From a virus: a stretch of DNA of 49,586 nucleotides. The stretch lies in the UHGV virus genome UHGV-0212814, one strand, 5' to 3'. Below the pieces are notes generated by a model. That model was not told the DNA's origin. It ran no database searches and saw only the letters and a program-made list of their open reading frames with translations. The number at the start of each line of letters is the position of its first letter. The first letter of the stretch is position 1. Made by a program: the position numbers and the translations under genes. Shown piece after piece: positions 14,496 to 29,242 of this stretch.

Positions 14496-15447
14496 TGATA
14501 CCAGCTCCTCTCAATGCCAGGTCCATTGTATGTATTCCTTCATCAATCTTATGCGTGACGGACTCCACCAGGAGATAGTTCTTCAGCTGCATGTCCTTCA
14601 CGTCCAGGAACACGGGGATGAGGCATCCTGCACGCACCTTGATGTCCCCAAATGCCCCCTTGACGGACAGGCTCCTGGTGGGACGGTTATACAGCCCCAG
14701 GTACGTCTCCGCTATTTTCTGCCCGTCCACCCCCTTATCCAGTGACTCGCTCATCTGCAGCACACCCCATTTATTGATGTTCTCCGTGTGCCTGGTCATG
14801 AAGACATCCCGTTTCTTGGTATCATCATTGTCGCGGTAAAGCTTAATCTGGTTATAGGTATCCTTATCAATGCTGATTGTGAAGTCATAATCCTGGGCCG
14901 TGCCGTCATCTATCATGATGTCCAGTTTCATGTCCTCTACATTCCTCAGTGCCAGCTTACCGACATCGTCATAAAGGACATACATTTTACCTGTGGCCAT
15001 CATGGTCAGGTCCAGGGCATTCAGGATGATGTCAAACAGGGTGGTGTCCGGCTCATTCCGGTATGGTATCTTATACCCCGTATCGTCAAGCACGCCCGTC
15101 CGTAGGTTGAAATCCCCGGCTATCATCTGGATTACCTCTCCTGCCGTCCTATCCTCATAGCTGTAGCTGTCCTTGTTCTTAAGGTACCGGAGCTGGTCAT
15201 AGGCCGTGACCTTGACTTCCCCATCACTGCTCCAGTTCCGCTCAAAGATGAATCCAAAGAATACCGGTTTCCCGTTCACATCCAGCCGGACGGCATTTCC
15301 TTCCTCAATCTCCAGCTTCCCGTCCGGGATGACAGTGAAGGAACATTTCCCCGGCTGCCCCTTACGTGCGGTATCCCAGGTGACACTCCCCTCCACCACC
15401 GGCTCATAGACCGCCTGGCCATTCTGTATATAGACATGTACATTCAT
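14488..15447 (-). CDS. XkdQ-like tail/baseplate protein
   Basis: 319 aa following the LysM XkdP-like gene. Confidence 0.65.
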   Translation of the reverse strand: MNVHVYIQNGQAVYEPVVEGSVTWDTARKGQPGKCSFTVIPDGKLEIEEGNAVRLDVNGKPVFFGFIFERNWSSDGEVKVTAYDQLRYLKNKDSYSYEDRTAGEVIQMIAGDFNLRTGVLDDTGYKIPYRNEPDTTLFDIILNALDLTMMATGKMYVLYDDVGKLALRNVEDMKLDIMIDDGTAQDYDFTISIDKDTYNQIKLYRDNDDTKKRDVFMTRHTENINKWGVLQMSESLDKGVDGQKIAETYLGLYNRPTRSLSVKGAFGDIKVRAGCLIPVFLDVKDMQLKNYLLVESVTHKIDEGIHTMDLALRGAGING

Positions 15448-15459
15448 GGACCCACCTCC

Positions 15460-16110
15460 TTATGGCATTGTCAATACCTGGCCGGTATTAATTTTATTTG
15501 GGTTGCTTATCTTATCCAGGTTGAGGTTATGGATTTCCTTCCACCTGCCCCCATCCCCAAGCTGCTTCTTTGCTATGTTCCAGAGGCAGTCACCGCCTTG
15601 TACGGTATAGGTCCTGGCCTGTGGCTGCTCCGCCGGCCGGTCATCCTGTGGCGTTTCAGCGGTTGGGGTGGGCTGGTCCTCAACGATAGTGAAGTTCATG
15701 ACCTTTGTCCCGTAATGCCTGGCCTCCTTCATGGTGATGGAGATTACCAGGTCCAGGCCTTCCTTCACATCATCCGATACCTTGTAATCCTCCAGGGTCA
15801 CGTCCATGTTGGTGTCGAAGGAATCACGGATGACGATGAACTCAAAGGAGCCTCTGCTGTCCTTCAGGTCCTGCAGATGGCTTATGAAGTCCTCCGCATC
15901 GTCCACGCTCCCATCCCAGACAGCACTTGGATAGTCCATCTGGGGCAGGATTATGTCCAGGCTGATTTCCGCAAGGCCCGGAGGCCGTAGGAGGTTGATT
16001 TCATCCCCGTTTATCAGCGTGACCGTCTTGTTCTGGCCGGGATACTTGATGGGTATCTTTTGGGGTGGGACTGGGAGGAGCATGTCATCTATGTATACCT
16101 CATATGCCAT
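15460..16110 (-). CDS. LysM-domain tail protein (XkdP-like)
   Basis: C-terminal LysM: YTVQGGDCLWNIAKKQLGDGGRWKEIHNLN...INTGQVLTMP. Confidence 0.8.
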   Translation of the reverse strand: MAYEVYIDDMLLPVPPQKIPIKYPGQNKTVTLINGDEINLLRPPGLAEISLDIILPQMDYPSAVWDGSVDDAEDFISHLQDLKDSRGSFEFIVIRDSFDTNMDVTLEDYKVSDDVKEGLDLVISITMKEARHYGTKVMNFTIVEDQPTPTAETPQDDRPAEQPQARTYTVQGGDCLWNIAKKQLGDGGRWKEIHNLNLDKISNPNKINTGQVLTMP

Positions 16111-18713
16111 CAGATATGCCCTCCTTCCGCGGCGGCCGCCAGGAACTCACTGGTGAACATGGACAGCGCCCGGCCCATGTCATCAAAGTCGGTCTTCTTG
16201 GTCAGGGTGTTGTTGTTCTTGACATCCACCTTTAACTCAGCCAGGGTGAACCGGTTGATGATTTCCTGCTCCGCAGCATCACGCATGTATTTTAAGTCCT
16301 CGTCCATTATGTCCATTGAATCCTTTATGGCTGCAGTATTGGCGGCAGTGCTTCCAGTGTTACCAGCTATTTCCGGGCCTACACCACCGGAATAATAATT
16401 TTCCTCGGCTGTATTCTTAGCGTTCTTCTTTTCTTCTGCCTCCGCCTTCGCTGCAGCAATCCTACGTTCCCGCTCCTTCTGGCTTTGGTTGGCCTCGTAC
16501 TGCATCCAATACAAATTCTGTGCTCTGGCCTTCTTGTCAGCCAGATTCTGGTTCTGCAATGTTGCAAGGTCTGCGGCTCTCTGTTTTTGCTTTGCTTCCT
16601 CTTCCAACGCCGCGCCGGTTGCAAATTCGACGTGTGAAATTACCTCAATGGAAGTTCCCGCGATACTATTGGTCAGCTCAATTAGTCTGTTGATTCGGTC
16701 AATCGCACCATTTATAAAATCCTGCAGGATTGTCAGACCGGCCACCTTTAGGTTTCCAAGGGTGTTTAGTACGCCTGTTCTGAATGCGGCAAAGCCATAC
16801 TGCATGTTGTCTATGCCGTTTTGGATGCCGTTCCACGTGGTCACGAATCCGATTCGTAGCTTATCAGCCCAGGTAAGGACAGAGTTTACTACCGTCAGCC
16901 AGGCCACCTTAATCCCGCCTACGTGATGAATCCATACCAAGATAGCCGCTATGACTGCCATGATAGCGATTACTATCCATGTTAATGGACAGGCTAATAA
17001 AGCCATATTCAATCCATTTTGTGCTCCTGCGGCTGTCGCTGTAGCGGCTGCCTCCGCTAAATCTGCACTTGTTTTTAAAGCTGCCCTTGCCGCCGCAATA
17101 GCTTTTAATCCGTTACTAACTGCCTGTACAGTATTATAAGCAATTACAACTCCCTTATAAGCAATCAAAGCGGCTGCAACACCTCCTATAACAGGTCCAA
17201 GCCATGACCAGTTATCACGTATGAATCCAGCTGCGCCCACCATCGATTCAATCACTTGTCCAACGATAGGTATGATATCACTTAAGACTCCTGCAAAACC
17301 CATCACTGCTGTTTCCGCAGCTGGCATATTGGCATTTACAGTGGCAAAAAACTGCATCATAGCCGGATAGAGCCTAGCCCCCACAGTCTCCTTGATGTCC
17401 CCCCAGGTATTTGCCATCTGTTGAATCTGGCCTTGCGGTGTATTCGCCATGATGGCATTCATGTTGCTCACGTTGTTCGTAACTACCTCCGCAAGGGTGG
17501 CCGCACGCTCCTGCTCATTTCCATACTTTAATATCTTCTCCTGGGCGGCATCGAACGTGACGCCTACCCTCGTAAGCGCTCCGACCTGTCCCTGCATGAC
17601 CTTTCCCATCATGTTACCAATATTGACAGCATCCTGTGTACTTACGTTAACACCATTCTGCTGCACAGCCAGGTTGTTCATAGCAGGTATCAGTGTGTTT
17701 AAGGCATCTGTTGAGTTAAGGAATGTAGCCAATTGTTGAGCGCCTGAAAGCTGCACCTCATCCCCAACAACACCAAGTGCCTGCTGGGCCGCTGTGAGTT
17801 CCTTTACGGATTGTATATCAGCTGGACTTGCTCCCATGCGCTGACTCATGATGGCTCCCAGTTTCGTCTCGGCCTCGCTTTGCACGTTTTGAAGCGAAGT
17901 CGTGTCACTGACGAAATTAACTGCCATCTTGATTCCCTGGACACCCGTATACATTCCTACTAACTGCTTTATGCGGCTCCCCAAGCCATCATAAGCATTT
18001 CCACCGTTTCTGACTGATTGATTAAACTGCTCCTGGGCTGTTATGTTATCCCTTATGTTCCTTTCCGCAGTGGACACGGCAGAATTAAGCTGTTGGTATG
18101 CCTTATTCGCGGCACTGATATCCATACGAGACATGGCATTGTTTAACTCATCCTGTATGGATACAGCCTGGCCCAGTTGTCCCCTCAATGTTTCCAACTG
18201 ATTATTGGTCTGTTCGGTCCGCAAATTTACTGGGATATTATTTAATTCCTGGACTCGCATCGATACGGCCTGTATTCGGTTCTGTAAGGCTGCCATGTCA
18301 TTCAGCATACCCGGAGGGATTACTGACATCCTATTTGCCTGTGATGATATCGCCTGCTGGGTCTGATACAACTTCTGCGCCATCTGATTGGCTGACTGAT
18401 ATTCGGCCGCAAACCTGTCTGCCCCAGAGCTTGTAAATACTTTAGGTTCTGATGTCTGTGCCCAAGAGGGTTCTGGCACACTTACCGGCTTGTTTTGTAC
18501 GCGTTCCAGTTCTTCCTGGTATTGCGCTACTGCTACGGATGCACTATTTACCTGCTGTACTGTTGCTTCCCATTGGGCTGTATTGATTGCTGTCTCGCTG
18601 GCCGTCTGTGCAGCTCCAAAACTGCTTACCATCATATTCATGGCAGTAGTAATGGAGGATAGAACTGGTGACATCCTATCGTCTATTTGGATAGATGTTG
18701 ATATAGCAGACAT
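16110..18713 (-). CDS. tail tape-measure protein
   Basis: 867 aa; extensive coiled-coil; hydrophobic TM-like block (residues about 560-600); RBS AGGAAAGGAG. Confidence 0.9.
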   Translation of the reverse strand: MSAISTSIQIDDRMSPVLSSITTAMNMMVSSFGAAQTASETAINTAQWEATVQQVNSASVAVAQYQEELERVQNKPVSVPEPSWAQTSEPKVFTSSGADRFAAEYQSANQMAQKLYQTQQAISSQANRMSVIPPGMLNDMAALQNRIQAVSMRVQELNNIPVNLRTEQTNNQLETLRGQLGQAVSIQDELNNAMSRMDISAANKAYQQLNSAVSTAERNIRDNITAQEQFNQSVRNGGNAYDGLGSRIKQLVGMYTGVQGIKMAVNFVSDTTSLQNVQSEAETKLGAIMSQRMGASPADIQSVKELTAAQQALGVVGDEVQLSGAQQLATFLNSTDALNTLIPAMNNLAVQQNGVNVSTQDAVNIGNMMGKVMQGQVGALTRVGVTFDAAQEKILKYGNEQERAATLAEVVTNNVSNMNAIMANTPQGQIQQMANTWGDIKETVGARLYPAMMQFFATVNANMPAAETAVMGFAGVLSDIIPIVGQVIESMVGAAGFIRDNWSWLGPVIGGVAAALIAYKGVVIAYNTVQAVSNGLKAIAAARAALKTSADLAEAAATATAAGAQNGLNMALLACPLTWIVIAIMAVIAAILVWIHHVGGIKVAWLTVVNSVLTWADKLRIGFVTTWNGIQNGIDNMQYGFAAFRTGVLNTLGNLKVAGLTILQDFINGAIDRINRLIELTNSIAGTSIEVISHVEFATGAALEEEAKQKQRAADLATLQNQNLADKKARAQNLYWMQYEANQSQKERERRIAAAKAEAEEKKNAKNTAEENYYSGGVGPEIAGNTGSTAANTAAIKDSMDIMDEDLKYMRDAAEQEIINRFTLAELKVDVKNNNTLTKKTDFDDMGRALSMFTSEFLAAAAEGGHI

Positions 18714-18744
18714 GCGTCACTCTCCTTTCCTAAAAATTTGTATA

Positions 18745-18769
18745 AAAAGAACGCCCCGAAGGACGTTCT
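18745..18769 (-). terminator. intrinsic terminator after the mini-CRISPR array
   Basis: GAACGTCC-TTCG-GGGCGTTC stem followed by TTTTTAT on the minus strand; coordinates +/-1. Confidence 0.5.
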
Positions 18770-18777
18770 GATTATTG

Positions 18778-18941
18778 TTGCATTCTACGCTCCCCGAATA
18801 GGGAGCGACTGGGAGATGCCGGAGCAATTTAGTCACTTGCAGGATTTCAATCCACGCCCCCAAATAGGGAGCGACGATATCAACCTTGAGAATTTTTGAT
18901 AATTTTACTATTTCAATCCACGCCCCCAAATAGGGAGCGAC
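18778..18941 (-). CRISPR. mini-CRISPR array: three 32-nt type I-C-like repeats, two 34-nt spacers
   Basis: minus-strand repeat GTCGCTCCCTATTTGGGGGCGTGGATTGAAAT at 18910-18941 and 18844-18875; degenerate terminal copy at 18778-18809; spacers at 18876-18909 and 18810-18843; leader side with TATAAT promoter at high coordinates. Confidence 0.8.
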
Positions 18942-18965
18942 CGCAAGTATTGCTACTTGCAACTA

Positions 18966-18994
18966 CTATTATACTACATTTTGTGCTATCGCAA
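18966..18994 (-). promoter_or_regulatory. leader promoter for the mini-array (TTGCGA-15-TATAAT)
   Basis: consensus -10 hexamer about 26 nt upstream of the first repeat on the minus strand; coordinates approximate. Confidence 0.5.
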
Positions 18995-19034
18995 CACATA
19001 CTACGCATAACTTCCTTTTTGGGGTAGAAAAACT

Positions 19035-19092
19035 GGTGCGAATGCTTTAGCAGTATCATGTCAGCTTGACATTCGCACCGGCCCCTTTTTTA
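19035..19092. terminator. bidirectional intrinsic terminator (GGTGCGAATG...CATTCGCACC)
   Basis: 10-bp stem flanked by a T-run on both strands; ends the Bro-N operon on the minus strand. Confidence 0.55.
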
Positions 19093-19209
19093 CTGCGTCT
19101 TATGTGTTTCCAACTGCTCCCGCAAGGCCATCAGTTCCTTGATTGTATCATCATAACTTTTCAACATCTTCTCATACTGTTCCACGGGGATGATTATTAA
19201 TTTCTGCAT
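19090..19209 (-). CDS. 39-aa hypothetical protein (MQKLIIIPVEQYEKMLKSYDDTIKELMALREQLETHKTQ)
   Basis: RBS GAAGGAGG 7 nt upstream; stop codon lies inside the terminator. Confidence 0.35.
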   Translation of the reverse strand: MQKLIIIPVEQYEKMLKSYDDTIKELMALREQLETHKTQ

Positions 19210-19367
19210 ACCGCGGCCTCCTTCTTTCCATCTTCCAAGCCAGCATAATATGCCCGATTGATTTTGATTGCTATGGCCTTGAATAATTCTCTGTCGCTTT
19301 CATCTGGGTTTTTCAAATCTGCAGCCTTACAATCTGCATATGCTTCTACGTCCACTGGATATGTCAT
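19197..19367 (-). CDS. 56-aa hypothetical protein
   Basis: ATGA overlap with the Bro-N stop (translational coupling); GGAGGTG upstream. Confidence 0.35.
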   Translation of the reverse strand: MTYPVDVEAYADCKAADLKNPDESDRELFKAIAIKINRAYYAGLEDGKKEAAVCRN

Positions 19368-19945
19368 GAGCATGCCACCTCCCCACTTTTACCAAAGGTC
19401 ATTGCCAATTGCTCATACGCAGGAATCCGTATAACATAATCCGGCACATTAATGCCAGCCTGGAGGAATATATCTCGTACTGCCATTGCAATTTCGTGGG
19501 GAGGAATACCCTCACTTTTCATAATACGCTCAAAGAGACGGCCCGCATTTGTTGCACTCTCAATAGCTGCCGCCGATACTGGGTACTGACAAGTAGTGGT
19601 CACGGAATATGTACCGGTTTTGTGGAGGGCGGGAAGAACTTCGTCTGTAACCCAATCAGAAAATGCTTCAGCATTTGGCTTACGGCTTTTAAAAATCAAC
19701 TTGAATACGCCGCTTTCGGTAAGAAAATTTTCACCAGCATTGTTCAACTTTCGGATGTGAACATTAGTCACATCCGGATTTTTAAGTTTTCGCACCTGCC
19801 TGCCATTCATATGAGATACAGCCTTCCTAACCGCCTCATCGCTAAGCTCCAAACATTCACCCACATGATATGGGTTAAAGTATACTCGTCCGTCTAATTC
19901 AAATGCTTCTACCTCATGTCCATTAAAAATCATTAATTCCTGCAT
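19364..19945 (-). CDS. Bro-N domain protein (antirepressor-like)
   Basis: N-terminal IFNGHEVEAFELDGRVYFNPYHVGECLELS, typical of the Bro-N/KilA-N family; RBS GAAAGGAG. Confidence 0.65.
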   Translation of the reverse strand: MQELMIFNGHEVEAFELDGRVYFNPYHVGECLELSDEAVRKAVSHMNGRQVRKLKNPDVTNVHIRKLNNAGENFLTESGVFKLIFKSRKPNAEAFSDWVTDEVLPALHKTGTYSVTTTCQYPVSAAAIESATNAGRLFERIMKSEGIPPHEIAMAVRDIFLQAGINVPDYVIRIPAYEQLAMTFGKSGEVACS

Positions 19946-20059
19946 AACCTTTTATCTCCTTTCAAATTTGACAATTCGGAGAAAATAAGGTATAGTAACC
20001 CTAAGGATAGGACATACCCTATTCCCTCATGATTGAGTAAACACACTGCCGACCAAAGC

Positions 20060-20203
20060 TTACTGTGTTTGCTCTTTTTTTGTTTCTAAATCCTTTTGAA
20101 TCAAATCAATCACATACTGCATAAATGTCTTATCTTGCATAACAGCTTTTATCTTAGCTGTTTTATGCATTTCATCATTCATTTTAATTGTTATCCGTTT
20201 CAT
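20060..20203 (-). CDS. ribbon-helix-helix (CopG/Arc-like) DNA-binding protein
   Basis: 47 aa, MKRITIKMNDEMHKTAKIKAVMQDKTFMQYVIDLIQKDL; RBS AAAGGAGAT; divergent from the XRE gene. Confidence 0.5.
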   Translation of the reverse strand: MKRITIKMNDEMHKTAKIKAVMQDKTFMQYVIDLIQKDLETKKEQTQ

Positions 20204-20332
20204 CCCTATCTCCTTTCCCACAATTTAATTGTATGTATATTGTAGATTATACGCAATTAAATTACGTTCGTCAAGTGAAACTTGAATTAAATTGCGTATT
20301 ATGATACACTCAAAGAAAAAGGGGCGATTAAT
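20204..20332. promoter_or_regulatory. divergent promoter/operator region with three AATTnAATT sites
   Basis: ACAATTTAATTGT palindrome, plus GCAATTAAATT and its inverted copy. Confidence 0.45.
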
Positions 20333-20797
20333 ATGGCAAGTAATAAAACCATTGGAAACAACATAAAATCATATCGTCAAAAAAAAGGTATTACACAAAA
20401 ACAATTGGCTTCTCTTATTGGAAAAACTGAAAGTTCAATACAAAAATACGAAGCTGGCAAAGTTGAAATTCCTAAAAATGTACTTATTAAAATAGCCAAG
20501 CAATTGGACTGTTCCTTCTTACAACTAAATGGTATTAATGCTGATGACTTTCTTCCTCGGCTAAAAGAAGCAAACACTGATCCTGTATTAGTATTTTTAG
20601 ATTCTATAGGATATAAAGTTTCTGTTGGCGATACTGGAGGGGTTTTTATCGAAATATTTGATGAGGAAATCCCGCTAATGAGAAAACAGTATAATATCCT
20701 AAAAGAACAAATAATTTCATACGCAAAATTTGCTACCGAACGAACTCTCTATCCTCCTATTATGGAGCCTTGCGATGATTCACCCGCCACCGAGTAG
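20333..20797 (+). CDS. XRE-family HTH regulator with C-terminal extension
   Basis: ITQKQLASLIGKTESSIQKYEAG HTH_3 motif; 154 aa. Confidence 0.75.
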   Translation: MASNKTIGNNIKSYRQKKGITQKQLASLIGKTESSIQKYEAGKVEIPKNVLIKIAKQLDCSFLQLNGINADDFLPRLKEANTDPVLVFLDSIGYKVSVGDTGGVFIEIFDEEIPLMRKQYNILKEQIISYAKFATERTLYPPIMEPCDDSPATE

Positions 20798-20825
20798 ATG
20801 GCTTTTTCTGCATTATAAAAGCACC

Positions 20826-20856
20826 TGGATTCCTCCGGGTGCTTTTGTCCCTATAA
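20826..20856. terminator. bidirectional terminator between the convergent XRE gene and the SHOCT gene
   Basis: GCACCTGG-attcct-CCGGGTGC hairpin with T-runs on both sides. Confidence 0.5.
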
Positions 20857-21600
20857 ACCTAAAAGCTGTCTCTTCTTATCATCATATTCTTCTTGTGTGA
20901 TAGCCCCTGCGTCAAGAAGATTTTTATATTTTAAAATCTCATCAGCTGGTGATACTTCCGTGTTATTGCAGCCCTCAGTACTTTTTTCTATACCTCCCAT
21001 ATCACTTAATCCTAACATTATCTTCTCAGCCTTTTCACAGTAAGACTTAAATAGTATTGAATCAGATTTTACTTTTCCGGTAGGTAACAAATTTATGCTT
21101 AACTGAGGATACGAATTATTATAAAGATTAACAATAATTTTAAATTCATTTATTTCTTCTTTCTGTTTAGAGCCCGATAATCCTCCCAGAATCGCACCGA
21201 CGCCGCCAAATAGTAATCCTCCTACCAAAGCGCTTCCTACACCTACGGACAAAACACCCGTACCATTTTTTTGACATTCATAGTTAATAATATCATCAAA
21301 TGTGAAATATAAATTCCCATATGATTTTAGTTTCCACAGCCTATTTTGTTCATCAATAAAAAGTTCTTTTTCAATAACTTTAGTTTGATGAAATATTCTA
21401 CTTCTTTGTTGATTTATTTCATTATCATTAATAGCATCTTTTACTCTTTTTAGAGATATATCTTTCCATGCAAGTGTGATTAAACAAACTCCGCATTTAG
21501 CGATACATTCCTTACAAACATATCCATCTGCTATCTGCTTAACACCTTTCTGCCCACCACATATAGAACAGTTTTCCTTATTCCCCCCAAACAATCCCAT
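20851..21600 (-). CDS. MGLFG-headed zinc-ribbon / glycine-zipper TM / SHOCT-domain protein
   Basis: CSICGG...CKECIAKCG zinc ribbon; VGVGSALVGGLLFGGVGAILGGLSG TM; C-terminal SHOCT-like YKNLLDAGAITQEEYDDKKRQLLGL; ATG at 21600 with RBS GGAGGTAGG (the track ORF starts 2 codons earlier at a TTG). Confidence 0.7.
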   Translation of the reverse strand: MGLFGGNKENCSICGGQKGVKQIADGYVCKECIAKCGVCLITLAWKDISLKRVKDAINDNEINQQRSRIFHQTKVIEKELFIDEQNRLWKLKSYGNLYFTFDDIINYECQKNGTGVLSVGVGSALVGGLLFGGVGAILGGLSGSKQKEEINEFKIIVNLYNNSYPQLSINLLPTGKVKSDSILFKSYCEKAEKIMLGLSDMGGIEKSTEGCNNTEVSPADEILKYKNLLDAGAITQEEYDDKKRQLLGL

Positions 21601-21692
21601 TCTCAATACCTACCTCCGCGCCATAATAATCTATCCTTATTATAGCGTGGATTGGAAACTATTTCTACCTTTTCCTCCGGGTGCTTTACTCC
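21601..21692 (-). repeat. duplicated 5' leader (copy 1) upstream of the SHOCT gene
   Basis: about 60-nt near-identity with 22107-22191; minus-strand reading contains CGCTATAAT. Confidence 0.5.
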
Positions 21693-22106
21693 TTAAATTT
21701 CATAGCTTGATGATTGTTGATTTTCAGCTATCTTAGTTCTTATTTTCATCATCTTACTTGTTTCACTTGACACTCCCCAAAAATCAATATGCTTACTATC
21801 CCCATTCTTATCCAAGTAATTAATAACGTAATAGTGCTTAGGTATAGACTTGCATTTAGTCGTTGTTATATTCGTTCCTTTGTATTTCGCCATATATTGA
21901 TTTTCCTGCATGAAGATATCAATACTCAAAACTCTCTGCCTATCCAATCTAGCTTCAACTAATGGATTTGCTTTAGTTAGTAAGATTGCGTCATCTGTCA
22001 ATTGCAAACTACATGGAAAATTACAGACAAATCCCGGTAAATCCCCATCATAGAATTGCACAGTAACCTTTTCTGGTATCTTCTCTTTCTTCCCAAACAG
22101 TCCCAT
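21693..22106 (-). CDS. MGLFG-headed paralog B (hypothetical, beta-rich)
   Basis: about 45% identity with paralog A; identical first 11 residues MGLFGKKEKIP; shared YYVINYLDKNGD and SYEI end; the track ORF extends to 22202. Confidence 0.65.
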   Translation of the reverse strand: MGLFGKKEKIPEKVTVQFYDGDLPGFVCNFPCSLQLTDDAILLTKANPLVEARLDRQRVLSIDIFMQENQYMAKYKGTNITTTKCKSIPKHYYVINYLDKNGDSKHIDFWGVSSETSKMMKIRTKIAENQQSSSYEI

Positions 22107-22191
22107 AACATCCCCTCCACACCATAATAATCTATCCTTATTATAGCGTGGATTGGAAGTTATTTCTACCTTTTTCTCCCATACTCTACTG
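22107..22191 (-). repeat. duplicated 5' leader (copy 2) upstream of paralog B
   Basis: CCATAATAATCTATCCTTATTATAGCGTGGATTGGAA..TATTTCTACCTTTT core shared with copy 1. Confidence 0.5.
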
Positions 22192-22602
22192 CTAAATTTC
22201 ATAACTTTTTGACTTTTGTTTATTAGTCAATTCGTCCCTCAATCTCATCACTTTTAATGCTGATGACGATGCACTCCAAAAAACGATTTGTTTCTTATCC
22301 CCATTCTTATCTAAATAGTTTATGACATAATATGACGTCGGAATATCGCCCTTTCTAAAACCGCTTTCAGCGTTCCCTTTATACCTTTGCATATAATCAT
22401 TTTTACCAAGGACTTCCACAGACAATATCCGGTTTCTGTCAAGTCTCACCTCCGTGTATGGATTATTTTTAGTGATGCGCAGACAATCCTCCATTAATAA
22501 TATCTGGCAAGGCTGATTAACAGGAAACTCATTCAGCTCCCCCTCGTAATACATAACTCTTATCCCATCTGGTATCTTCTCTTTCTTCCCAAACAGTCCC
22601 AT
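22192..22602 (-). CDS. MGLFG-headed paralog A (hypothetical)
   Basis: 136 aa; RBS GGTGGAGGGG; a TATAAT lies about 30 nt upstream. Confidence 0.7.
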   Translation of the reverse strand: MGLFGKKEKIPDGIRVMYYEGELNEFPVNQPCQILLMEDCLRITKNNPYTEVRLDRNRILSVEVLGKNDYMQRYKGNAESGFRKGDIPTSYYVINYLDKNGDKKQIVFWSASSSALKVMRLRDELTNKQKSKSYEI

Positions 22603-22661
22603 AACATCCCCTCCACCTTTGCTTAATCTGGGAATATTATACCATCTCTTCTTTTCATATT

Positions 22662-22829
22662 CTACCGTTTCTTTCCCTTTTTCAGTCTCTGCGCTTCTTT
22701 TTTATCCCTTTCCAGCTTCATTTCAACCGCCGCCATCACATAAGCCTGTTCATCAATATCAAGGGCCAAGAACTCATGTGGCCACTTATGGAGTTTATGG
22801 AGGCAATAGTAGGCCACATTTGCCTCCAT
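22662..22829 (-). CDS. 55-aa protein downstream of the tail chaperone
   Basis: RBS GAAGGAGG 4 nt upstream; MEANVAYYCLHKLHKWPHEF...; may be the second (T-like) chaperone partner. Confidence 0.4.
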   Translation of the reverse strand: MEANVAYYCLHKLHKWPHEFLALDIDEQAYVMAAVEMKLERDKKEAQRLKKGKKR

Positions 22830-22843
22830 ATCGCCTCCTTCAA

Positions 22844-23275
22844 TTAGTTTTTTGCCTCATCCACCTTTTCCTGCATGGTCCTATCAAACCCATGGTACTC
22901 CTGCAGCTGGCCCATAAAAGCATTGTATTCCCCAGGGTCATCCAGCATCTCCACTATCAGCTGCTCCGCACCCATTACACCGTAAGAGTCCTGAAGTTCC
23001 TTATCATTCAGGTTTGGATATACCACACATGCAGCTGCCATCTTAGCCAGGTAACGATTGGCGTAAAACTTTGGCCGGTACATTCCTGGCTTTCCCGTCA
23101 CCTGTATATCCACGGTACAATCATCCCGCAGTGCATTATCCTCTTTTGTAGACAGCGGCCGGATTTCCCACATCATCGGTTTACCATTCTCGTCCAAAAA
23201 GGAGGCCGTTGCTGCAATCTTTAAATTCTCCTTAGTTCTCTTATTCTTCTTTAAAAATCTGCTCAAATCTCCCAT
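22844..23275 (-). CDS. XkdN-like tail assembly chaperone
   Basis: 143 aa immediately after the tail tube gene, as in PBSX-type myophages. Confidence 0.7.
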   Translation of the reverse strand: MGDLSRFLKKNKRTKENLKIAATASFLDENGKPMMWEIRPLSTKEDNALRDDCTVDIQVTGKPGMYRPKFYANRYLAKMAAACVVYPNLNDKELQDSYGVMGAEQLIVEMLDDPGEYNAFMGQLQEYHGFDRTMQEKVDEAKN

Positions 23276-23295
23276 ATCCTCTTATCCTCTCTTTC

Positions 23296-23769
23296 TTACT
23301 GCATTCCCGGAATATCAGCAAAGGCTTCCGGCATTTCAAATCCTTCGAAGGTGAAATCAAACTCATCCTCCAGGTATTCCGCATCTGCATCAAATCTTGC
23401 CAAGACCAGATTGTCTATATTGCAATCCGTCAGGATGATTGTCTGCCGCCCCACGCTGGACGATGGATCTTCGTTCGTCACTTGTATGTCAAAATATACG
23501 TCTTTCCCTGTGTTCTGGAACCTATACATCAATTCCCTAAAACGGCTCGTATTATAATGGAATGTTGCGGAACCGGACCCCTTCAGGCCGATGGCCTTGT
23601 TGCCTTTCATCATGCGACCAAGTATTGGAACCTCTGTTTTTACCTTTTCAAGCTTTGCCTCCAGGTTTAGCGCCTGCATGAACAGGAACCGTTCATTATC
23701 AATTGTAATGAAACACTCTGCCTTCGTTGCGCTGATTGCCTCCCATGCATTCATGGTTATATCATTCAT
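23296..23769 (-). CDS. tail tube protein (XkdM-like)
   Basis: 157 aa following the sheath gene. Confidence 0.8.
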   Translation of the reverse strand: MNDITMNAWEAISATKAECFITIDNERFLFMQALNLEAKLEKVKTEVPILGRMMKGNKAIGLKGSGSATFHYNTSRFRELMYRFQNTGKDVYFDIQVTNEDPSSSVGRQTIILTDCNIDNLVLARFDADAEYLEDEFDFTFEGFEMPEAFADIPGMQ

Positions 23770-23785
23770 CTATGTATCTCCTTTC

Positions 23786-25084
23786 TCAGCTAACCACCAC
23801 TGTCATATATAATTGCGACATACAGTTAATCGGCGTCACCGGGCAGTTCACCACAACAGACCGCTTGCTGTTCCCGCGCCCTACCGTGATTTCTTTGGCC
23901 TCCACGGCCTCAATCGCCCGCAGCCTTGCCAGCTCCTTGTTGTAGGTCACGATGTCATTCCAGAGGCTCACCCTGCCCGCGTCATCGTTCGGCATGATGC
24001 CCAGGTACTTCGTGTTGAACATGGATGCGATGTCATTGCCAATCTGGTCCAGTACCCTTATGGTCTGGTTGCCGGAAAAGTCCTCGCCTTTTTCCTCCGT
24101 GAAAGTCGTCAGTGTGTTGATGTCCATCAGGACACGCACGTCATCGCCCACCCGGTGGAACATGAACTTCCCGGACCGTACACCCGCTGACAGCTGCCCC
24201 TGGGTGTAATCCACATCCACGGTAAGTTCCCCATCATACACACGGTTCTCATTGGTCTTATTGACAGCACAGGCCGCCTGGGCCCCGGTTGTCCAGTACA
24301 CAAGCCCCTGCTCCTGTTCTGCTGCCTTGTTCTCAACAGATATGATTCCCTCATAGTCAGCACCGGCATTCCGGTACATGACCGTCTGGAACTTGACGCC
24401 GGCTTCATCACGCATCCGTTTTGTGTACTCCGCAAACACGGCCTTGACCGCATCATCCATGGATGGGCAGCATAATGTCTGGAATGTATGGGATTCCATT
24501 TTTGCCAGGAACCGCGCATAATCCTCACCTGTCACCGCATCCCCATCAGTCCCTCCGGTAAAGGGCATCCCGGCCGTTGCCGCAAGGGTCGCATCCTTCT
24601 TGAACACAACGTACCGGTTGTCTGTAAGCTCCGTGGCTGCCGCTACTGTCTGATGGTCCACTTCCTTCCTGTCAAGCAGTGTCCTCACATCAAATTTCGT
24701 GCTGTCATCCACATTGGCGCTGACAACCAGCGTGAGGTCCTTGCCACGTACACCGCTGTATCTTGCCTGCCCGTAATCACAGGCAGCCTTCACGCCTGCA
24801 TTGAGCCTGTAGAAGATACCCTTGGTCAAATTCCTGAACAATTCCCTTATCATCCACATCTGTGGCGCATCTGCCGGATAGCCGAATATCTCCTGGCACC
24901 GCTCCTGGTAATCCTGGGCTGTCACAATGAAAGCCTCCTTTTCCGGTCCCCAGCCGAATTCCAGAGGGATTGCCGCCGTCCCGCGGTCTGAAAGCACTGC
25001 CACACTGCTGGCAGCACTGACAAAATTGATATAAGCCCCGGGAAGTGTTTTATTCTGAGCCGTAAAGCTTCCGCCTCCTAACAT
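23786..25084 (-). CDS. contractile tail sheath protein (XkdK-like)
   Basis: 432 aa; position and size typical of the sheath; a sheath-tube-chaperone-TMP order would follow but for the intervening island. Confidence 0.85.
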   Translation of the reverse strand: MLGGGSFTAQNKTLPGAYINFVSAASSVAVLSDRGTAAIPLEFGWGPEKEAFIVTAQDYQERCQEIFGYPADAPQMWMIRELFRNLTKGIFYRLNAGVKAACDYGQARYSGVRGKDLTLVVSANVDDSTKFDVRTLLDRKEVDHQTVAAATELTDNRYVVFKKDATLAATAGMPFTGGTDGDAVTGEDYARFLAKMESHTFQTLCCPSMDDAVKAVFAEYTKRMRDEAGVKFQTVMYRNAGADYEGIISVENKAAEQEQGLVYWTTGAQAACAVNKTNENRVYDGELTVDVDYTQGQLSAGVRSGKFMFHRVGDDVRVLMDINTLTTFTEEKGEDFSGNQTIRVLDQIGNDIASMFNTKYLGIMPNDDAGRVSLWNDIVTYNKELARLRAIEAVEAKEITVGRGNSKRSVVVNCPVTPINCMSQLYMTVVVS

Positions 25085-25258
25085 CTATCTCACCTTTCCT
25101 TTCATGAATTTCTCGATTACCGCATCCACTTCTTTCAGCGAATATTTCCTGCCATCCTCCAGCAGGGCACTCACCAGGTCCTTCTTTCCCTGGTAACACT
25201 CCGCCTGTAACAGCTCCTGTTTTGAAAATGTTGCTTCTCCCTGTTTTGTTTCCTTCAA
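25085..25258 (-). CDS. 57-aa hypothetical protein (TTG start)
   Basis: GGAGGT RBS 6 nt before the TTG; fills the gap between the neck protein and the sheath exactly; not in the ORF track. Confidence 0.3.
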   Translation of the reverse strand: MKETKQGEATFSKQELLQAECYQGKKDLVSALLEDGRKYSLKEVDAVIEKFMKGKVR

Positions 25259-25259
25259 T

Positions 25260-25697
25260 TCACGACCTCCTTAACTGCGTGCTGGCCTCCAGCCCCTCCA
25301 TTGGTTCCTCCTGGGGCTCCGGTTTCATGATGAACATATTGTAGCTGACAAAGAAGGTGAGCACACCATCCTCTGTCCTGTGACTGCGTCCGTTCCCCCG
25401 CAGCAGGCTGCCATCCCCCAATGTGATATATTCCAGCCCGTCCATGAGGATGTCCGCCACACGGTTCAGTTCCCGGGAGGGTTGGACGGTATCGCCAGGA
25501 AGATGCTGGATACACATAGCCGTCTCACGATAATATCGCCGACCAACCATTGGCTTTTCAGACGGCTCCAGGAACCGCACAAAAAAACAAGGCTCCGTAA
25601 GGCCCTGTCCTACCGCATCTGTGTAAATTTCATATCCATCGCCAAACAGCTCATTCAGCCGCCTGGTGACGGCATCCATGATATCGTTAAGCATCAA
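25260..25697 (-). CDS. tail completion / neck protein
   Basis: 145 aa between the HK97 gp10-like gene and the sheath. Confidence 0.5.
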   Translation of the reverse strand: MMLNDIMDAVTRRLNELFGDGYEIYTDAVGQGLTEPCFFVRFLEPSEKPMVGRRYYRETAMCIQHLPGDTVQPSRELNRVADILMDGLEYITLGDGSLLRGNGRSHRTEDGVLTFFVSYNMFIMKPEPQEEPMEGLEASTQLRRS

Positions 25698-26259
25698 ATA
25701 CTCCCTTCAAATATTCCCTTAACTTCTTTTCCAACACACCCGGAGCCTGAGCCTCCAGTTCCTTCTCTGATATGGTAAGCATGAACTTTCCTGGAACCCA
25801 GGCTTTCTTTGCACTCACACCTAAAGCGGGGATATAGCGGCCGGGCGTCTGCCGATGACCATATTCCACGTAGGATGCATATTCGGTCGGGTTGATTATC
25901 TCAATCTGGTAGTTATCCCCTACCTTCTGGATATCACCCACCGTCCAGCCGCGTCTTAATGTCCCTCCCTGGTATCCAGCCCAGTATTTCTGCTTTATGG
26001 CGCCATTCTTTGACAGGAAGGTCCTTGACTTCCCATCGGAACCCTTTACCTTTACAGTCTTTGGCCCGTCCAGCTTTGGTGCCTTCCCTACCGACGTCCT
26101 TTGCTTGACCTTCCTCAGAAGCCGGGATGCCAGTTCCTGGATACACTCCTGGTTGAAGGCCTCCCGCTCCTGTTCAAGGCGCTCAATCTGTCTCTGCAGC
26201 TTCCTGACATCCTTAAAATCAAAACTTCCACCCTTTGCCATCATGCATACCCCTTCCAC
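25687..26259 (-). CDS. HK97 gp10-family head-tail joining protein
   Basis: 190 aa in the neck module; WAGYQGG, EYGHRQTPGRYIP motifs. Confidence 0.55.
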   Translation of the reverse strand: MEGVCMMAKGGSFDFKDVRKLQRQIERLEQEREAFNQECIQELASRLLRKVKQRTSVGKAPKLDGPKTVKVKGSDGKSRTFLSKNGAIKQKYWAGYQGGTLRRGWTVGDIQKVGDNYQIEIINPTEYASYVEYGHRQTPGRYIPALGVSAKKAWVPGKFMLTISEKELEAQAPGVLEKKLREYLKGVFDA

Positions 26260-26627
26260 AGCTCCAGCAGGATTTCCTGGTGGGAAGGGTATACGGCAGC
26301 CTTACCACTCTGGGCATAGCTTTCCGCCTGTCCCTGCTGTGTTACCTCAATCCGGCATCCGGGCGGTACTGTCAGCTCCGGGGCCAGGAACAGCTTTATG
26401 GCCTGCGCCACAGCCGTGACCGTATCACTTCCAGCCGCCGGTGACGTACTGGAATAGGACAGATGGCAGGCTATACCATCCTGTACCAGAACCTCTTCCT
26501 GCCTTGTCACCTTCGTCACAGGGTCCTTTACAGGCTTCATCCCATAAATCCTGCATGCCCCATCATAAGTGGCCTCCACGGCCTTCCTGTGCATCCTCTG
26601 GGCCTGCCTGATTGCATCCCTTATCAT
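26241..26627 (-). CDS. head closure / head-tail adaptor protein
   Basis: 128 aa after the gp6-like connector. Confidence 0.55.
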   Translation of the reverse strand: MIRDAIRQAQRMHRKAVEATYDGACRIYGMKPVKDPVTKVTRQEEVLVQDGIACHLSYSSTSPAAGSDTVTAVAQAIKLFLAPELTVPPGCRIEVTQQGQAESYAQSGKAAVYPSHQEILLELWKGYA

Positions 26628-26628
26628 C

Positions 26629-26967: not shown

Positions 26968-26978
26968 GACATCCCTCC

Positions 26979-29236: not shown

Positions 29237-29242
29237 GGTACT

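What the first reader, a model, noticed from the sequence alone, without database searches (positions are those of the whole stretch)
18714..22843. About 4-kb accessory island splitting the conserved tail chaperone-TMP junction
In PBSX-type tails the chaperone gene is followed directly by the tape-measure gene. Here 4.1 kb intervene. The island carries three MGLFG-headed genes, an XRE regulator, an RHH protein, a Bro-N protein, two tiny coupled ORFs, two terminators and the mini-CRISPR array. It encodes its own regulation and several independently promoted units, but no integrase or replication gene. This looks like a defence or competition hotspot rather than a structural segment, and the combination appears undescribed.
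Basis: partly seen in the sequence, partly recalled or inferred. Interest (0 to 1): 0.7.

Follow-up and report, generated by a model that had tools for sequence, protein, structure and literature searches.

The report
Prophage tail-gene hotspot carrying mini-CRISPR
A 3.9-kb block of accessory genes wedged between two tail genes of a gut Enterocloster prophage includes a tiny CRISPR array whose spacers match sibling phages, so the prophage probably uses its host's CRISPR machinery to keep rivals out; the same trick at the same spot is already known from C. difficile phages.

Summary
The island is real. About 3.95 kb of low-GC DNA (0.375 against 0.49-0.50 in the flanks) sits between the tail-chaperone genes and the tape-measure gene of an Enterocloster/Lachnoclostridium pacaense prophage. 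The gene list is right, with one correction. The 55-aa ORF at 22662-22829 is conserved in all 80 relatives and belongs to the tail module, so the island spans 18714-22661.

In most distant relatives the junction is contiguous. In the close clade it holds 0.5-2.8 kb of variable cargo.

The most informative part is a type I-C mini-CRISPR array with a conserved leader, two spacers, a degenerate last repeat and a terminator. Sibling prophages keep the leader and trailer but carry other spacers. Six of eight spacers match tube, chaperone or island genes of sibling phages, next to TTC or TTT PAMs. One sibling's spacer matches this window perfectly.

The other cargo:
- Three PH-like 'MGLFG' proteins, one with a Gly-zipper and a SHOCT domain.
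- An XRE / RHH-Bro-N (Ant-like) switch with a clustered operator.

The 'competition hotspot' reading is supported. 'Undescribed' is not:
- C. difficile phiC2-like prophages carry CRISPR arrays between xkdN and TMP (Hargreaves 2014).
- Phage CDMH1 has Bro-N and MGLFG/SHOCT genes at this junction.

This is a new member of a known kind.

The parts
22844..23275 (-). XkdN-like tail assembly chaperone gene (upstream flank, not island)
   Evidence: PF08890 E 1.4e-44, phrog_389.
22662..22829 (-). Conserved 55-aa second chaperone-region ORF. It belongs to the tail module, not the island. It holds the protospacer 22720-22756 (PAM TTC) matched 37/37 by a spacer of the Enterocloster hominis sibling prophage L172.
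   Evidence: Present directly after the chaperone gene in all 80 relatives and in phiC2/CDMH1. Spacer match.
22192..22602 (-). MGLFG1: 136-aa stand-alone PH-like domain protein, preceded by an extended -10 (TGGTATAAT, 22636-22644)
21693..22106 (-). MGLFG2: 137-aa paralog of MGLFG1 (50% identity), with the duplicated promoter-like TAGAAA-17-TATAAT at 22140-22168
   Evidence: (repeats D1-D3). Absent from the otherwise identical island L217.
20851..21600 (-). MGLFG3: 249-aa protein with DUF4428 zinc ribbon, PH_gly_zipper and SHOCT; promoter-like site 21639-21667
   Evidence: SHOCT E 2e-8, DUF4428 E 2e-5, phrog_888 E 2e-55. PF27000 PH_gly_zipper is precomputed on the identical protein. 37% identical to C. 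difficile phage CDMH1 gp21.
20821..20846 (-). Terminator-like hairpin with U-tract between the convergent MGLFG3 and XRE genes
   Evidence: Fold -17.3 kcal/mol, z -3.9.
20333..20797 (+). XRE-family HTH regulator (154 aa), divergent from the RHH/Bro-N operon
   Evidence: HTH_3 E 1e-15. 100% identical in L172 and L207. Replaced by another allele in L084.
20221..20302 (.). Divergent promoter/operator region. It has an 18-bp inverted repeat (20246-20263 / 20285-20302), three CAATTWAATTG-like sites and back-to-back promoter-like hexamers.
   Evidence: I1; TTGACG-17-TATAAT 11/12 on the minus strand; GTGAAA-16-TATTAT on the plus strand. All 4 window matches to CAATTWAATTG fall in 20180-20294.
20060..20203 (-). 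47-aa ribbon-helix-helix-like protein, first gene of the operon repressible by XRE (inferred)
   Evidence: Pfam ParD E 1.6e-4, RHH_10 E 2e-3, both below the curated cut-offs. PDB ParD 2an7 E 5e-4.
19364..19945 (-). Bro-N domain protein (193 aa), Ant-like anti-repressor candidate
   Evidence: Bro-N E 5e-15; PHROG 'anti-repressor Ant' families E 2e-32 to 1e-18.
19090..19373 (-). Two overlapping small ORFs (58 aa 19197-19373; 39 aa 19090-19209), translationally coupled to the Bro-N gene; function unknown
   Evidence: No family hits. Conserved with the cassette in L084, L172 and L207. The 39-aa protein is indexed in 184 blocks of the assembly collection.
19030..19079 (-). Terminator-like hairpin (11-bp stem) after the 39-aa ORF
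   Evidence: Fold -25.5 kcal/mol, z -3.5.
18942..19029 (-). CRISPR leader with a TATAAT at 18968-18973; identical in sibling prophages that carry different spacers
   Evidence: The -35 spacing is non-canonical, so the promoter call is tentative.
18777..18941 (-). Type I-C-type mini-CRISPR array: R1 18910-18941, spacer 1 18876-18909, R2 18844-18875, spacer 2 18810-18843, degenerate terminal repeat 18777-18809
   Evidence: Repeat family GTCGCTCCCT-N4-GGGNGCGTGGATTGAAAT is found in at least 120 genomic arrays. Hairpin plus 11-nt 3' tail. Spacer turnover among siblings. Targets with TTC/TTT PAMs.
18748..18769 (-). Intrinsic terminator directly after the array, about 30 nt before the tape-measure RBS. 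It is conserved in L001, L084, L172 and L207, even where the TMP is only 39% identical.
   Evidence: (z -6.6).
16110..18713 (-). Tape-measure protein gene (downstream flank)
   Evidence: 867-aa ORF followed by LysM and XkdQ/YqbQ-like genes. Homologs sit in the same position in relatives.

Best explanation
The segment 18714-22661 is a recombination-exchanged accessory ('moron') hotspot at the chaperone/tape-measure junction of a temperate XkdN-type myophage of Enterocloster. It carries three cargo modules that most likely serve competition with other phages.

(1) Mini-CRISPR array. This module is shown at sequence level; its activity is inferred. A leader-driven type I-C mini-array without cas genes is transcribed in the lysogen and processed by the host's type I-C Cas proteins. 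Its crRNAs guide Cascade/Cas3 to sibling phages, whose tube, chaperone or island alleles differ from the prophage's own. The array takes up new spacers at the leader end through the host adaptation machinery. A strong terminator after the array stops its transcript from running into the tape-measure gene.

(2) XRE / RHH-Bro-N switch (inferred). An XRE repressor binds a clustered operator between divergent promoters. It controls an operon of a small RHH protein, a Bro-N/Ant-like anti-repressor and two tiny ORFs. This is a second-immunity switch that works like the immI region of P22 and occurs in alternative alleles.

(3) PH-like proteins (inferred; the weakest step). One to three small PH-like proteins carry the conserved MGLFG N-terminus, one of them with a Gly-zipper membrane segment and SHOCT. 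Each has its own promoter. They act as lysogen-expressed exclusion or abortive-infection factors at the membrane.

Late transcription must read through three terminators to reach the tape-measure gene. This implies antitermination or leaky termination, which is not resolved here.
For: Hotspot:
- Most of the 75 measurable relatives have under 70 bp between the small chaperone ORF and the TMP gene.
- In the close clade (L001-L018), 16 of the 17 measurable loci carry 0.5-2.8 kb of low-GC cargo there. L003 carries none and L004 could not be measured.
- That cargo is varied: MGLFG genes, Zn-ribbon/TM proteins, lipoproteins, XRE+RHH+Bro-N, a Rha-like protein.
- L172 (E. hominis) shares the XRE-to-terminator cassette at 84-100% protein identity, while its chaperone (49%) and TMP (39%) differ.

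Array:
- The repeat belongs to the widespread I-C repeat family and folds as a 7-bp hairpin with an 11-nt tail.
- Siblings share the leader and the trailer repeat. They carry one spacer (L083), another leader-proximal spacer (L207), or wholly different spacers (L084, L172).
- Window spacer 1 matches the L084 XRE allele 34/34.
- Window spacer 2 matches the L010 tube gene 33/34, next to PAM TTC.
- L172 spacer 1 matches window 22720-22756 37/37, next to PAM TTC.
- Every non-self hit is flanked by TTC or TTT. The array copies are flanked by AAT.
- The window holds no cas gene.
- C. clostridioforme LM41 has a chromosomal type I-C system (PMC11318856).

Switch:
- Divergent promoters with an 18-bp inverted repeat, and operator sites clustered only there.
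- The L084 allele has different repeats.
- PHROG Ant families match the Bro-N protein.
- The primary ImmR/ImmA/integrase module lies elsewhere, at 1436-4650.

PH-like proteins.

Precedent at the same site in C. difficile phages.
Against: - No expression, crRNA or interference data exist.
- The type I-C cas operon of the actual host strain was not seen.
- No spacer target was found in IMG/VR by exact match or among cultured phages. All targets come from loci fetched around the same tail region, so the apparent clustering of targets near the junction is partly a search bias.
- Two of eight spacers have no known target.
- PADLOC recognises nothing but the HTH.
- The role of the MGLFG proteins is inferred only from context. 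Their steady association with tail-gene clusters could point to a virion or assembly role.
- The RHH assignment is below Pfam thresholds.
- Three terminators inside a late operon are unexplained.
Confidence: 0.75

Rival explanations
1. The MGLFG genes, and perhaps the whole block, are a conserved tail-assembly or structural module such as extra chaperones. They would be needed to build the tail and would not be accessory cargo.
For: - One MGLFG homolog sits at exactly this junction in L001 and L011-L018.
- Other homologs lie between other tail genes: LysM/XkdQ in L210-212 and tube/TAC in L213.
- They are always in the late-gene orientation.
- The family is small and appears phage-restricted.
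Against: - Absent in L003 and in most relatives with the same tail genes.
- Copy number runs from 0 to 3 among near-identical phages (L084, L217).
- The position is not fixed.
- GC is about 0.35 against 0.50, and the genes have their own promoter-like sites.
- The fold is PH-like, not the XkdN chaperone fold.
Confidence: 0.07
2. The mini-array is not an interference guide set. It would instead be an anti-CRISPR or regulatory device: repeat RNA that soaks up Cas proteins (Racr-like), or a crRNA-like repressor of host cas genes, as proposed for some prophage mini-arrays.
For: - Phage mini-arrays with regulatory spacers are described (bioRxiv 10.1101/2023.03.03.530964).
- The same phage carries a solitary repeat-like unit at 29069-29101.
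- L001 retains only decayed repeats.
Against: - Spacers match sibling-phage genes perfectly or nearly so, next to canonical TTC PAMs.
- They turn over at the leader end while leader and trailer stay fixed. That is the signature of normal adaptation and interference, not of a fixed regulatory guide.
Confidence: 0.1
3. The XRE, RHH and small ORFs form a toxin-antitoxin or abortive-infection module, not an immI-like anti-repressor switch. The HTH or RHH protein would be the antitoxin and a small ORF or the Bro-N protein the toxin. It would stabilise the prophage, as the type I TA systems next to C. difficile prophage arrays do.
For: - Weak ParD, HicB and MqsA-antitoxin hits for the RHH and XRE proteins.
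- TA modules adjoin CRISPR arrays in C. difficile prophages (PMC5961336).
- CDMH1 gp18 at the same junction looks like a type I toxin.
Against: - No recognisable toxin domain was found in the island by Pfam, PHROG or PADLOC.
- No small hydrophobic Lys-rich ORF was seen in the island.
- The Bro-N protein matches Ant families strongly.
- The gene order repressor / small RHH / Ant is that of an antirepressor switch.
Confidence: 0.1
4. The island is an autonomous mobile element (transposon, satellite or integrative element) that happened to insert into the tail operon.
For: Sharp GC drop; its own regulators; presence or absence among relatives.
Against: - No integrase, transposase or replication gene.
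- No flanking direct or inverted repeats.
- Different sub-modules come and go independently at the same site. This fits homologous or illegitimate recombination between phages better than transposition.
Confidence: 0.03

Closest known systems
CRISPR arrays of C. difficile phiC2-like prophages (phiCD630-1/-2, phi027 and others), located between xkdN and the tape-measure gene (Hargreaves et al. 2014, PMC4173771; Maikova et al. 2018, PMC5961336)
   Same: - Same genomic junction in the same kind of XkdN-type myophage. The chaperone is 43% identical to that of phiC2.
- The arrays have no cas genes, rely on the host system, and carry spacers that match other phages of the same host.
- Accessory genes sit alongside. 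CDMH1 has Bro-N and MGLFG/DUF4428/SHOCT genes there.
   Different: - The host is a Lachnospiraceae (Enterocloster) and the repeats are type I-C, not type I-B.
- There is one array of two spacers, where C. difficile prophages have 2-4 arrays with 7-24 spacers.
- No type I toxin-antitoxin was recognised next to it.
- An XRE/RHH/Bro-N switch lies directly upstream.
Virus-borne mini-CRISPR arrays of Sulfolobales viruses SPV1/SPV2 (Medvedeva et al. 2019, PMC6858448)
   Same: - 1-2 spacers, a leader, and no cas genes.
- Same position in sibling genomes with different spacers.
- Reciprocal targeting of close relatives.
- Own alleles diverged enough to avoid self-targeting.
- Targets lie close to the array.
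   Different: The hosts are archaea, the viruses are non-tailed, and the CRISPR type differs. Here the carrier is an integrated temperate phage and the array sits inside a late operon.
immI region of Salmonella phage P22: mnt / arc-ant, next to sieA in the late region (own knowledge of the P22 literature; not checked with tools)
   Same: - A repressor gene is divergent from a small RHH gene followed by an antirepressor gene.
- The module lies among late/structural genes, away from the primary immunity region.
- It sits beside candidate exclusion genes.
   Different: - The repressor here is an XRE-HTH, whereas Mnt is an RHH protein.
- The antirepressor candidate is a Bro-N protein with no shown homology to P22 Ant.
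- No function has been tested. This is an analogy of architecture only.
Accessory/defence hotspots of temperate phages, e.g. the P2/P4 hotspots (Rousset et al. 2022) and lambdoid morons (own knowledge)
   Same: A fixed junction between conserved genes carries interchangeable, compositionally foreign cargo with its own promoters and terminators.
   Different: The location is inside the tail-assembly operon, between the chaperone and the tape measure. Apart from the CRISPR array, the cargo matches no catalogued defence system.
Solitary repeat units / RNA anti-CRISPRs (Racr; Camara-Wilpert et al. 2023, own knowledge), relevant to the unit at 29069-29101 only
   Same: A single repeat-like hairpin with the exact 12-nt 3' handle of the cognate repeat, in a phage genome, behind a promoter-like site.
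   Different: It was not tested. It lies in the head-gene operon and outside the island. It coexists with an array that needs active Cas proteins.

Membership tests
Type I-C CRISPR array | 32-nt repeat of the GTCGC(T/G)CCC...GCGTGGATTGAAA(C/T) family that forms a stem-loop with an 11-nt 3' tail | tested here: met
   Repeat GTCGCTCCCTATTTGGGGGCGTGGATTGAAAT. The degenerate pattern finds at least 120 genomic arrays of up to 91 repeats. Fold: 7-bp stem and 11-nt tail. The assignment of this repeat family to subtype I-C rests on my own knowledge.
Type I-C CRISPR array | Spacers of about 33-37 nt at regular spacing, a leader at one end and a degenerate repeat at the other | tested here: met
   34-nt spacers, period 66. 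Conserved leader and degenerate trailer repeat in all siblings.
Type I-C CRISPR array | Protospacers flanked by a 5'-TTC PAM | tested here: met
   All non-self matches have TTC (most) or TTT. The array copies have AAT.
Type I-C CRISPR array | Cognate cas genes (cas3, cas5c, cas8c, cas7c, cas4, cas1, cas2) in the same genome | not testable with these tools
   None in the window. The host chromosome is not available. A type I-C system is reported for C. clostridioforme LM41 (PMC11318856).
Type I-C CRISPR array | Transcription, Cas5c processing and interference | not testable with these tools
   Needs RNA-seq or northern blots and plaque assays.
Virus-borne mini-CRISPR arrays for interviral conflict (Medvedeva 2019) | 1-2 spacers with a leader and no cas genes, carried on a viral genome | tested here: met
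Virus-borne mini-CRISPR arrays for interviral conflict (Medvedeva 2019) | Spacers target closely related viruses reciprocally, while the carrier's own alleles escape | tested here: met
   Window spacers match L084, L010 and L172. An L172 spacer matches the window. L084 spacers match L207 and L172. The window's own tube gene is diverged at the spacer-2 site.
Virus-borne mini-CRISPR arrays for interviral conflict (Medvedeva 2019) | Spacer turnover at a fixed genomic position | tested here: met
   L083, L207, L084 and L172 against the window.
C. difficile prophage xkdN-TMP CRISPR locus | Array located between the XkdN-like chaperone gene and the tape-measure gene | tested here: met
   the statement in PMC4173771.
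C. difficile prophage xkdN-TMP CRISPR locus | Type I-B repeats of C. difficile | tested here: not met
   The repeat is of the I-C family.
C. difficile prophage xkdN-TMP CRISPR locus | Adjacent type I toxin-antitoxin: a toxin of about 50 aa, hydrophobic and Lys-rich, plus an antisense RNA | tested here: inconclusive
   No such ORF was seen in the island. Antisense RNAs cannot be detected from sequence alone. CDMH1 gp18 at the same site does look like one.
P22 immI-type antirepressor switch | Repressor gene divergent from a small RHH gene followed by an antirepressor gene, with the operator between them | tested here: inconclusive
   The architecture and clustered operator are present. The RHH call is sub-threshold. 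No binding or genetic data exist.
P22 immI-type antirepressor switch | Homology to Mnt, Arc and Ant | not tested
   No comparison with the P22 proteins was run. The repressor here is an XRE-HTH, so at most this is a functional analog.
Pfam PH_gly_zipper (PF27000) / SHOCT proteins | PH-like domain interrupted by a Gly-zipper segment, with a C-terminal SHOCT | tested here: met
Known anti-phage defence systems (PADLOC) | Match to any catalogued defence protein | tested here: not met
   Only generic HTH models hit the XRE protein.

The most novel reading that the evidence does not exclude
The island would be a coordinated 'incompatibility cassette'.
- The alternative alleles of the XRE/RHH-Ant switch and of the neighbouring tube and chaperone genes would define phage incompatibility groups.
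- The adjoining mini-array would be kept loaded, by primed adaptation, with spacers against exactly the alleles the carrier lacks.
- The phage would also carry a repeat-mimic RNA in its late operon (29069-29101) to blunt the reciprocal arrays of its siblings during lytic infection.

CRISPR-based allele-specific exclusion would then drive the mosaic diversification of this tail region in gut Lachnospiraceae phages. The MGLFG PH-like proteins would be a new class of membrane exclusion factor.
Probability: 0.15. Interest if true: 0.7.

Novelty: new member of a known kind. Interest (0 to 1): 0.45.

Why it matters
This extends a phenomenon shown for C. difficile (type I-B) and for archaeal viruses to common human-gut Lachnospiraceae and to type I-C systems. 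The cassette's 39-aa gene is indexed in 184 blocks of public assemblies.

It gives a compact, testable example of phage-against-phage CRISPR use with clear reciprocal spacer-target pairs:
- the window against L084, L010 and L172;
- L172 against the window.

It shows that the chaperone/tape-measure junction is a recurrent cargo site across clostridial families. That helps in annotating prophages and in finding new exclusion genes.

It also flags a small, uncharacterised family of PH-like 'MGLFG' proteins, and PH_gly_zipper/SHOCT proteins, as the commonest cargo at that site. These are reasonable candidates for new superinfection-exclusion factors.

Tried and rejected
- Megablast of 15400-25100 against 50,697 cultured phages gave no match.
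- Exact searches of both window spacers, the exact repeat and the leader in IMG/VR gave 0 hits each.
- blastn of the spacers against cultured phages gave only chance-level partial matches, such as Lak phages and E. coli phages.
- The exact repeat gave 0 hits in 185,579 species-representative genomes.
It yielded only one Enterocloster locus, and that is itself a prophage mini-array (L172), so the host chromosomal array could not be shown.
- The leader search in JGI metagenomes gave one contig (L207).
- Rfam found no CRISPR-DR or other family in 18500-29400 and nothing in the odd 2.4-kb gap of L005.
- PADLOC found nothing in the island beyond HTH models, and nothing in the other low-GC blocks.
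- hhalign of the MGLFG1/2 profile against MGLFG3 was not significant.
- A generic mini-array scan found none in the gaps of the other IMG/VR relatives or in phiC2/CDMH1.
- Literature searches for SHOCT, DUF4428, Gly-zipper or superinfection exclusion gave nothing useful.
- The autonomous-element idea was rejected: no integrase and no terminal repeats.
- The chaperone-paralog idea was rejected on distribution and fold.

Full report
**1. What is there**

The window is one temperate phage. Its late genes run on the minus strand.
- The primary lysogeny module lies at 1436-4650: ImmR-like HTH, ImmA/IrrE protease, a DUF3862/BLIP-like protein and a tyrosine integrase.
- Terminase, head, tail and replication genes fill the rest. 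No cas gene is present.

In the tail module the order is:
- sheath 23786-25084
- tube 23296-23769
- XkdN-like chaperone 22844-23275 (PF08890, E 1e-44)
- a 55-aa ORF 22662-22829
- 3.95 kb of DNA with GC 0.375, against 0.49-0.50 in the flanks
- tape-measure gene 16110-18713
- LysM and XkdQ-like genes

- The 55-aa ORF follows the chaperone gene in all 80 relatives fetched, and also in C. difficile phiC2 and CDMH1, where it is unannotated. It is part of the tail module, so the island spans 18714-22661.
- There are three terminator-like hairpins, not two.

**2. Is the junction normally contiguous?**

Yes. I fetched 80 IMG/VR loci that encode a relative of the chaperone and measured the distance from the small ORF's stop to the TMP start.
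- Most loci with 44-54% chaperone identity have under 70 bp.
- In the close clade (L001-L018, 75-92% identity), 16 of the 17 measurable loci carry 0.5-2.8 kb of low-GC DNA there. L003 carries none and L004 could not be measured.

The cargo differs from locus to locus:
- a single MGLFG gene (L001, L011-L018)
- Zn-ribbon/TM proteins (L005, L006)
- lipoproteins (L002, L042)
- multi-TM proteins (L009, L017, L078)
- a TM + Gly-zipper PH protein (L010)
- an XRE + RHH + Bro-N set (L006)
- a Rha-like protein (L078)

The same island as in the window occurs on many gut-metagenome contigs and in Lachnoclostridium pacaense GCA_020554935.1. Its sub-modules vary.
- L217 lacks MGLFG2.
- L085 has another third gene.
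- L084 lacks MGLFG3. It also has a different XRE allele, with a Cro-like HTH in place of the RHH gene.

An Enterocloster hominis prophage (L172) has the XRE-to-terminator cassette at 84-100% protein identity. Its chaperone (49%) and TMP (39%) are different. So the junction is a recombinational hotspot and the cassette moves between phages with different tail genes.

**3. The mini-CRISPR array**

On the minus strand the array reads as follows:
- leader, with a TATAAT at 18968-18973
- GTCGCTCCCTATTTGGGGGCGTGGATTGAAAT (repeat)
- 34-nt spacer
- the same repeat
- 34-nt spacer
- a degenerate repeat
- a strong terminator, about 30 nt before the TMP ribosome-binding site

The repeat folds into a 7-bp hairpin with an 11-nt tail. 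It belongs to the repeat family GTCGCTCCCT-N4-GGGNGCGTGGATTGAAAT. That family forms long arrays in many Bacillota genomes, many of them Lachnospiraceae. By my own knowledge this is the type I-C repeat family.

Sibling prophages keep the leader, the trailer repeat and the terminator but differ in spacers.
- L083 has only the distal spacer.
- L207 has the same distal spacer and a different leader-proximal one.
- L084 has three other spacers.
- L172 has two other spacers.

This is the pattern expected from leader-end acquisition by a working adaptation machinery.

**4. What the spacers match**

Exact searches in IMG/VR and BLAST against cultured phages found nothing meaningful. The targets are among the sibling loci.

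| Spacer | Target | Match | PAM |
|---|---|---|---|
| Window 1 | XRE allele of L084 | 34/34 | TTT |
| Window 2 | 3' end of the L010 tube gene | 33/34 | TTC |
| Window 2 | L172 tube gene | 31/34 | TTC |
| L084 1 | Bro-N allele of L207 | 35/35 | TTT |
| L084 2 | tube genes of L172 and L207 | 3-4 mismatches | TTC |
| L172 1 | window 22720-22756, in the small chaperone ORF | 37/37 | TTC |
| L172 2 | L010 chaperone gene | 3 mismatches | TTC |

L084 spacer 3 and L207 spacer 1 have no target.
- Every non-self hit is flanked by TTC or TTT. TTC is the canonical I-C PAM, by my own knowledge. The array copies are flanked by AAT.
- The window's own tube gene is strongly diverged at the spacer-2 site.
- All targets lie within about 2.5 kb of the junction and on the same strand. 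Medvedeva et al. noted the same proximity for the archaeal viruses SPV1 and SPV2.
- My target search space was limited to +/-10 kb around the chaperone gene. The clustering is therefore suggestive and not proven.
- It could reflect primed adaptation. It could also reflect the fact that only the mosaic, diverged segments can be targeted without self-targeting.

The host genus has type I-C systems (C. clostridioforme LM41; PMC11318856). I could not examine the actual host chromosome.

**5. The regulatory module**

XRE (+ strand) and the RHH/Bro-N/58-aa/39-aa operon (- strand) diverge from an intergenic region of about 110 bp (20204-20332). That region contains:
- a TTGACG-17-TATAAT promoter-like site (11/12) for the operon
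- a weaker site for XRE
- an 18-bp inverted repeat whose arms overlap the two -10 elements

All four window matches to CAATTWAATTG (at most 1 mismatch) lie in 20180-20294. The L084 allele has different repeats, GCTACAAAATG twice. Different operators would be expected of heteroimmune alleles.

The Bro-N protein matches PHROG 'anti-repressor Ant' families at E 2e-32. The 47-aa protein resembles the RHH domain of ParD, but below Pfam cut-offs.

By architecture this resembles the P22 immI region (mnt / arc-ant beside sieA, in the late region). That comparison rests on my own knowledge and is an analogy, not homology.

**6. The MGLFG proteins**

MGLFG1 and MGLFG2 are 50% identical paralogs with duplicated upstream regions. 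They belong to a small family:
- 50 proteins by word-indexed search
- 108 clusters at 50% identity among 1.84 billion representatives
- no Pfam, PHROG or PADLOC annotation

A profile comparison links the family to a 166-aa junction protein of L019 that has a Gly-zipper inserted (hhalign 88%).

MGLFG3 is DUF4428 + PH_gly_zipper (PF27000) + SHOCT, and matches phrog_888.

Homologs of MGLFG1/2 also sit between the LysM and XkdQ genes (L210-212) and between the tube and chaperone genes (L213). The gene therefore hops between junctions of the tail cluster. I infer a lysogen-expressed, membrane-associated exclusion or abortive function. This is the least supported step.

**7. Comparison with what is known**

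The cultured phages with the closest chaperone are C. difficile phiC2, phiMMP01/03 and CDMH1, at 43% identity.
- Hargreaves et al. 2014 state that the CRISPR arrays of phiC2-like prophages lie between xkdN and the TMP gene, and that their spacers match other C. difficile phages.
- Maikova et al. 2018 show that such prophage arrays are expressed and flanked by type I TA modules.
- phiC2 has 2.2 kb of accessory genes at the junction and CDMH1 has 3.1 kb.
- In CDMH1 these include a Bro-N protein and gp21, which starts MGLFGSKDNCCICG and is 37% identical to MGLFG3 over its full length.

The site, the array and two of the cargo families are therefore already on record, although the non-CRISPR cargo has not been studied. 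What is new here:
- the host family and the CRISPR subtype
- the very small array with clear reciprocal targeting between sibling prophages
- the linked XRE/RHH-Ant cassette with alternative alleles that are themselves targets

**8. Open points**

- Three terminators lie between the chaperone genes and the tape-measure gene. Late transcription must pass them, and I found no basis for deciding how.
- Expression, processing and interference are all untested.

**9. Verdict**

- The 'competition hotspot' interpretation is supported, strongly for the array and by inference for the rest.
- The novelty claim is not supported.
- This is a new member of a known kind, of moderate interest.

Noticed in passing
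window 29069-29101 (minus strand): A solitary CRISPR-repeat-like unit, GTCAAGGTCTATGCGGACCTTGTGGATTGAAAT. It has a different 8-bp stem but the same 12-nt 3' handle as the array repeat, with about 0.006 such matches expected by chance in the window. It sits behind a promoter-like stretch and about 25 nt upstream of the scaffold gene ATG. It folds like a repeat. It is present in L081-L083 and absent in L084. It is a candidate repeat-mimic RNA (Racr-like), or a Cas5c processing site in the late mRNA.
   Followed up: partly
window 22720-22756: The window phage is itself a perfect target (37/37, PAM TTC) of spacer 1 of the mini-array in the Enterocloster hominis CLA-SR-H021 prophage (L172). The targeting between siblings is reciprocal.
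   Followed up: yes
window 29499-31115 and 29243-29527: The MuF-like head protein carries a C-terminal Gln_amidase (papain-fold glutamine deamidase toxin) domain, so it is a phage MuF polymorphic toxin. The 94-aa ORF downstream has no family hit and could be its immunity protein.
   Followed up: partly
window 35700-37700: A second low-GC block (GC 0.31-0.37) lies between the small terminase gene and an HTH gene. It holds a DUF6731 protein (302 aa) and ORFs of 188 and 108 aa with no Pfam or PADLOC hit. It is probably another accessory island.
   Followed up: partly
L001 11097-11151: In the closest IMG/VR relative, its single MGLFG gene is followed by a decayed repeat (6 mismatches) and a partial repeat with no spacer. 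The same terminator and TMP leader as in the window come next. This is either a remnant of the array or a solitary repeat unit.
   Followed up: partly
L210-L212 (5001-5405) and L213 (5001-5405): Homologs of MGLFG1/2 (about 47-50% identity) occupy other junctions of related tail clusters: between the LysM and XkdQ/YqbQ genes, and between the tube and chaperone genes.
   Followed up: partly
all protospacers listed: Every identified protospacer lies on the strand antisense to the late genes and within about 2.5 kb of the junction. Possible causes are primed adaptation, self/non-self constraints or search bias.
   Followed up: no
L083 13824-16870: In one otherwise near-identical prophage the tape-measure gene is split into two ORFs (515 + 495 aa) and the array has only one spacer.
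   Followed up: no
L209 (CDMH1) 6762-6923 and L208 (phiC2) about 6750-6910: The small ORF gp18 (MDNFLLSILASLIASLIGYIVCRCIKNVKSHSTRGKSKSGWELGFKIKFRKFK) at the C. difficile junction looks like the type I toxins described next to C. difficile CRISPR arrays. The same sequence is present but unannotated in phiC2. So is the small second chaperone ORF, at 6459-6572.
   Followed up: no
L005 6960-8407: About 1.4 kb of this relative's junction has no convincing ORF and no Rfam hit, and the downstream TMP ORF is only 376 aa. The locus may be degraded or rearranged.
   Followed up: partly
window 8611-9207 (+ strand): A 198-aa ORF lies on the opposite strand, in a low-GC pocket (0.385) among the tail-fibre genes. 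It has no Pfam or PADLOC hit and may be another moron.
   Followed up: partly
window MGLFG1/2/3 N-termini; CDMH1 gp21; L019-L021 junction proteins: The N-terminal motif MGLFG(K/G) is nearly invariant across otherwise diverged PH-like and PH_gly_zipper proteins, and is disordered in the model. Its function (membrane anchoring, or a processing or recognition signal) is unexplained.
   Followed up: no
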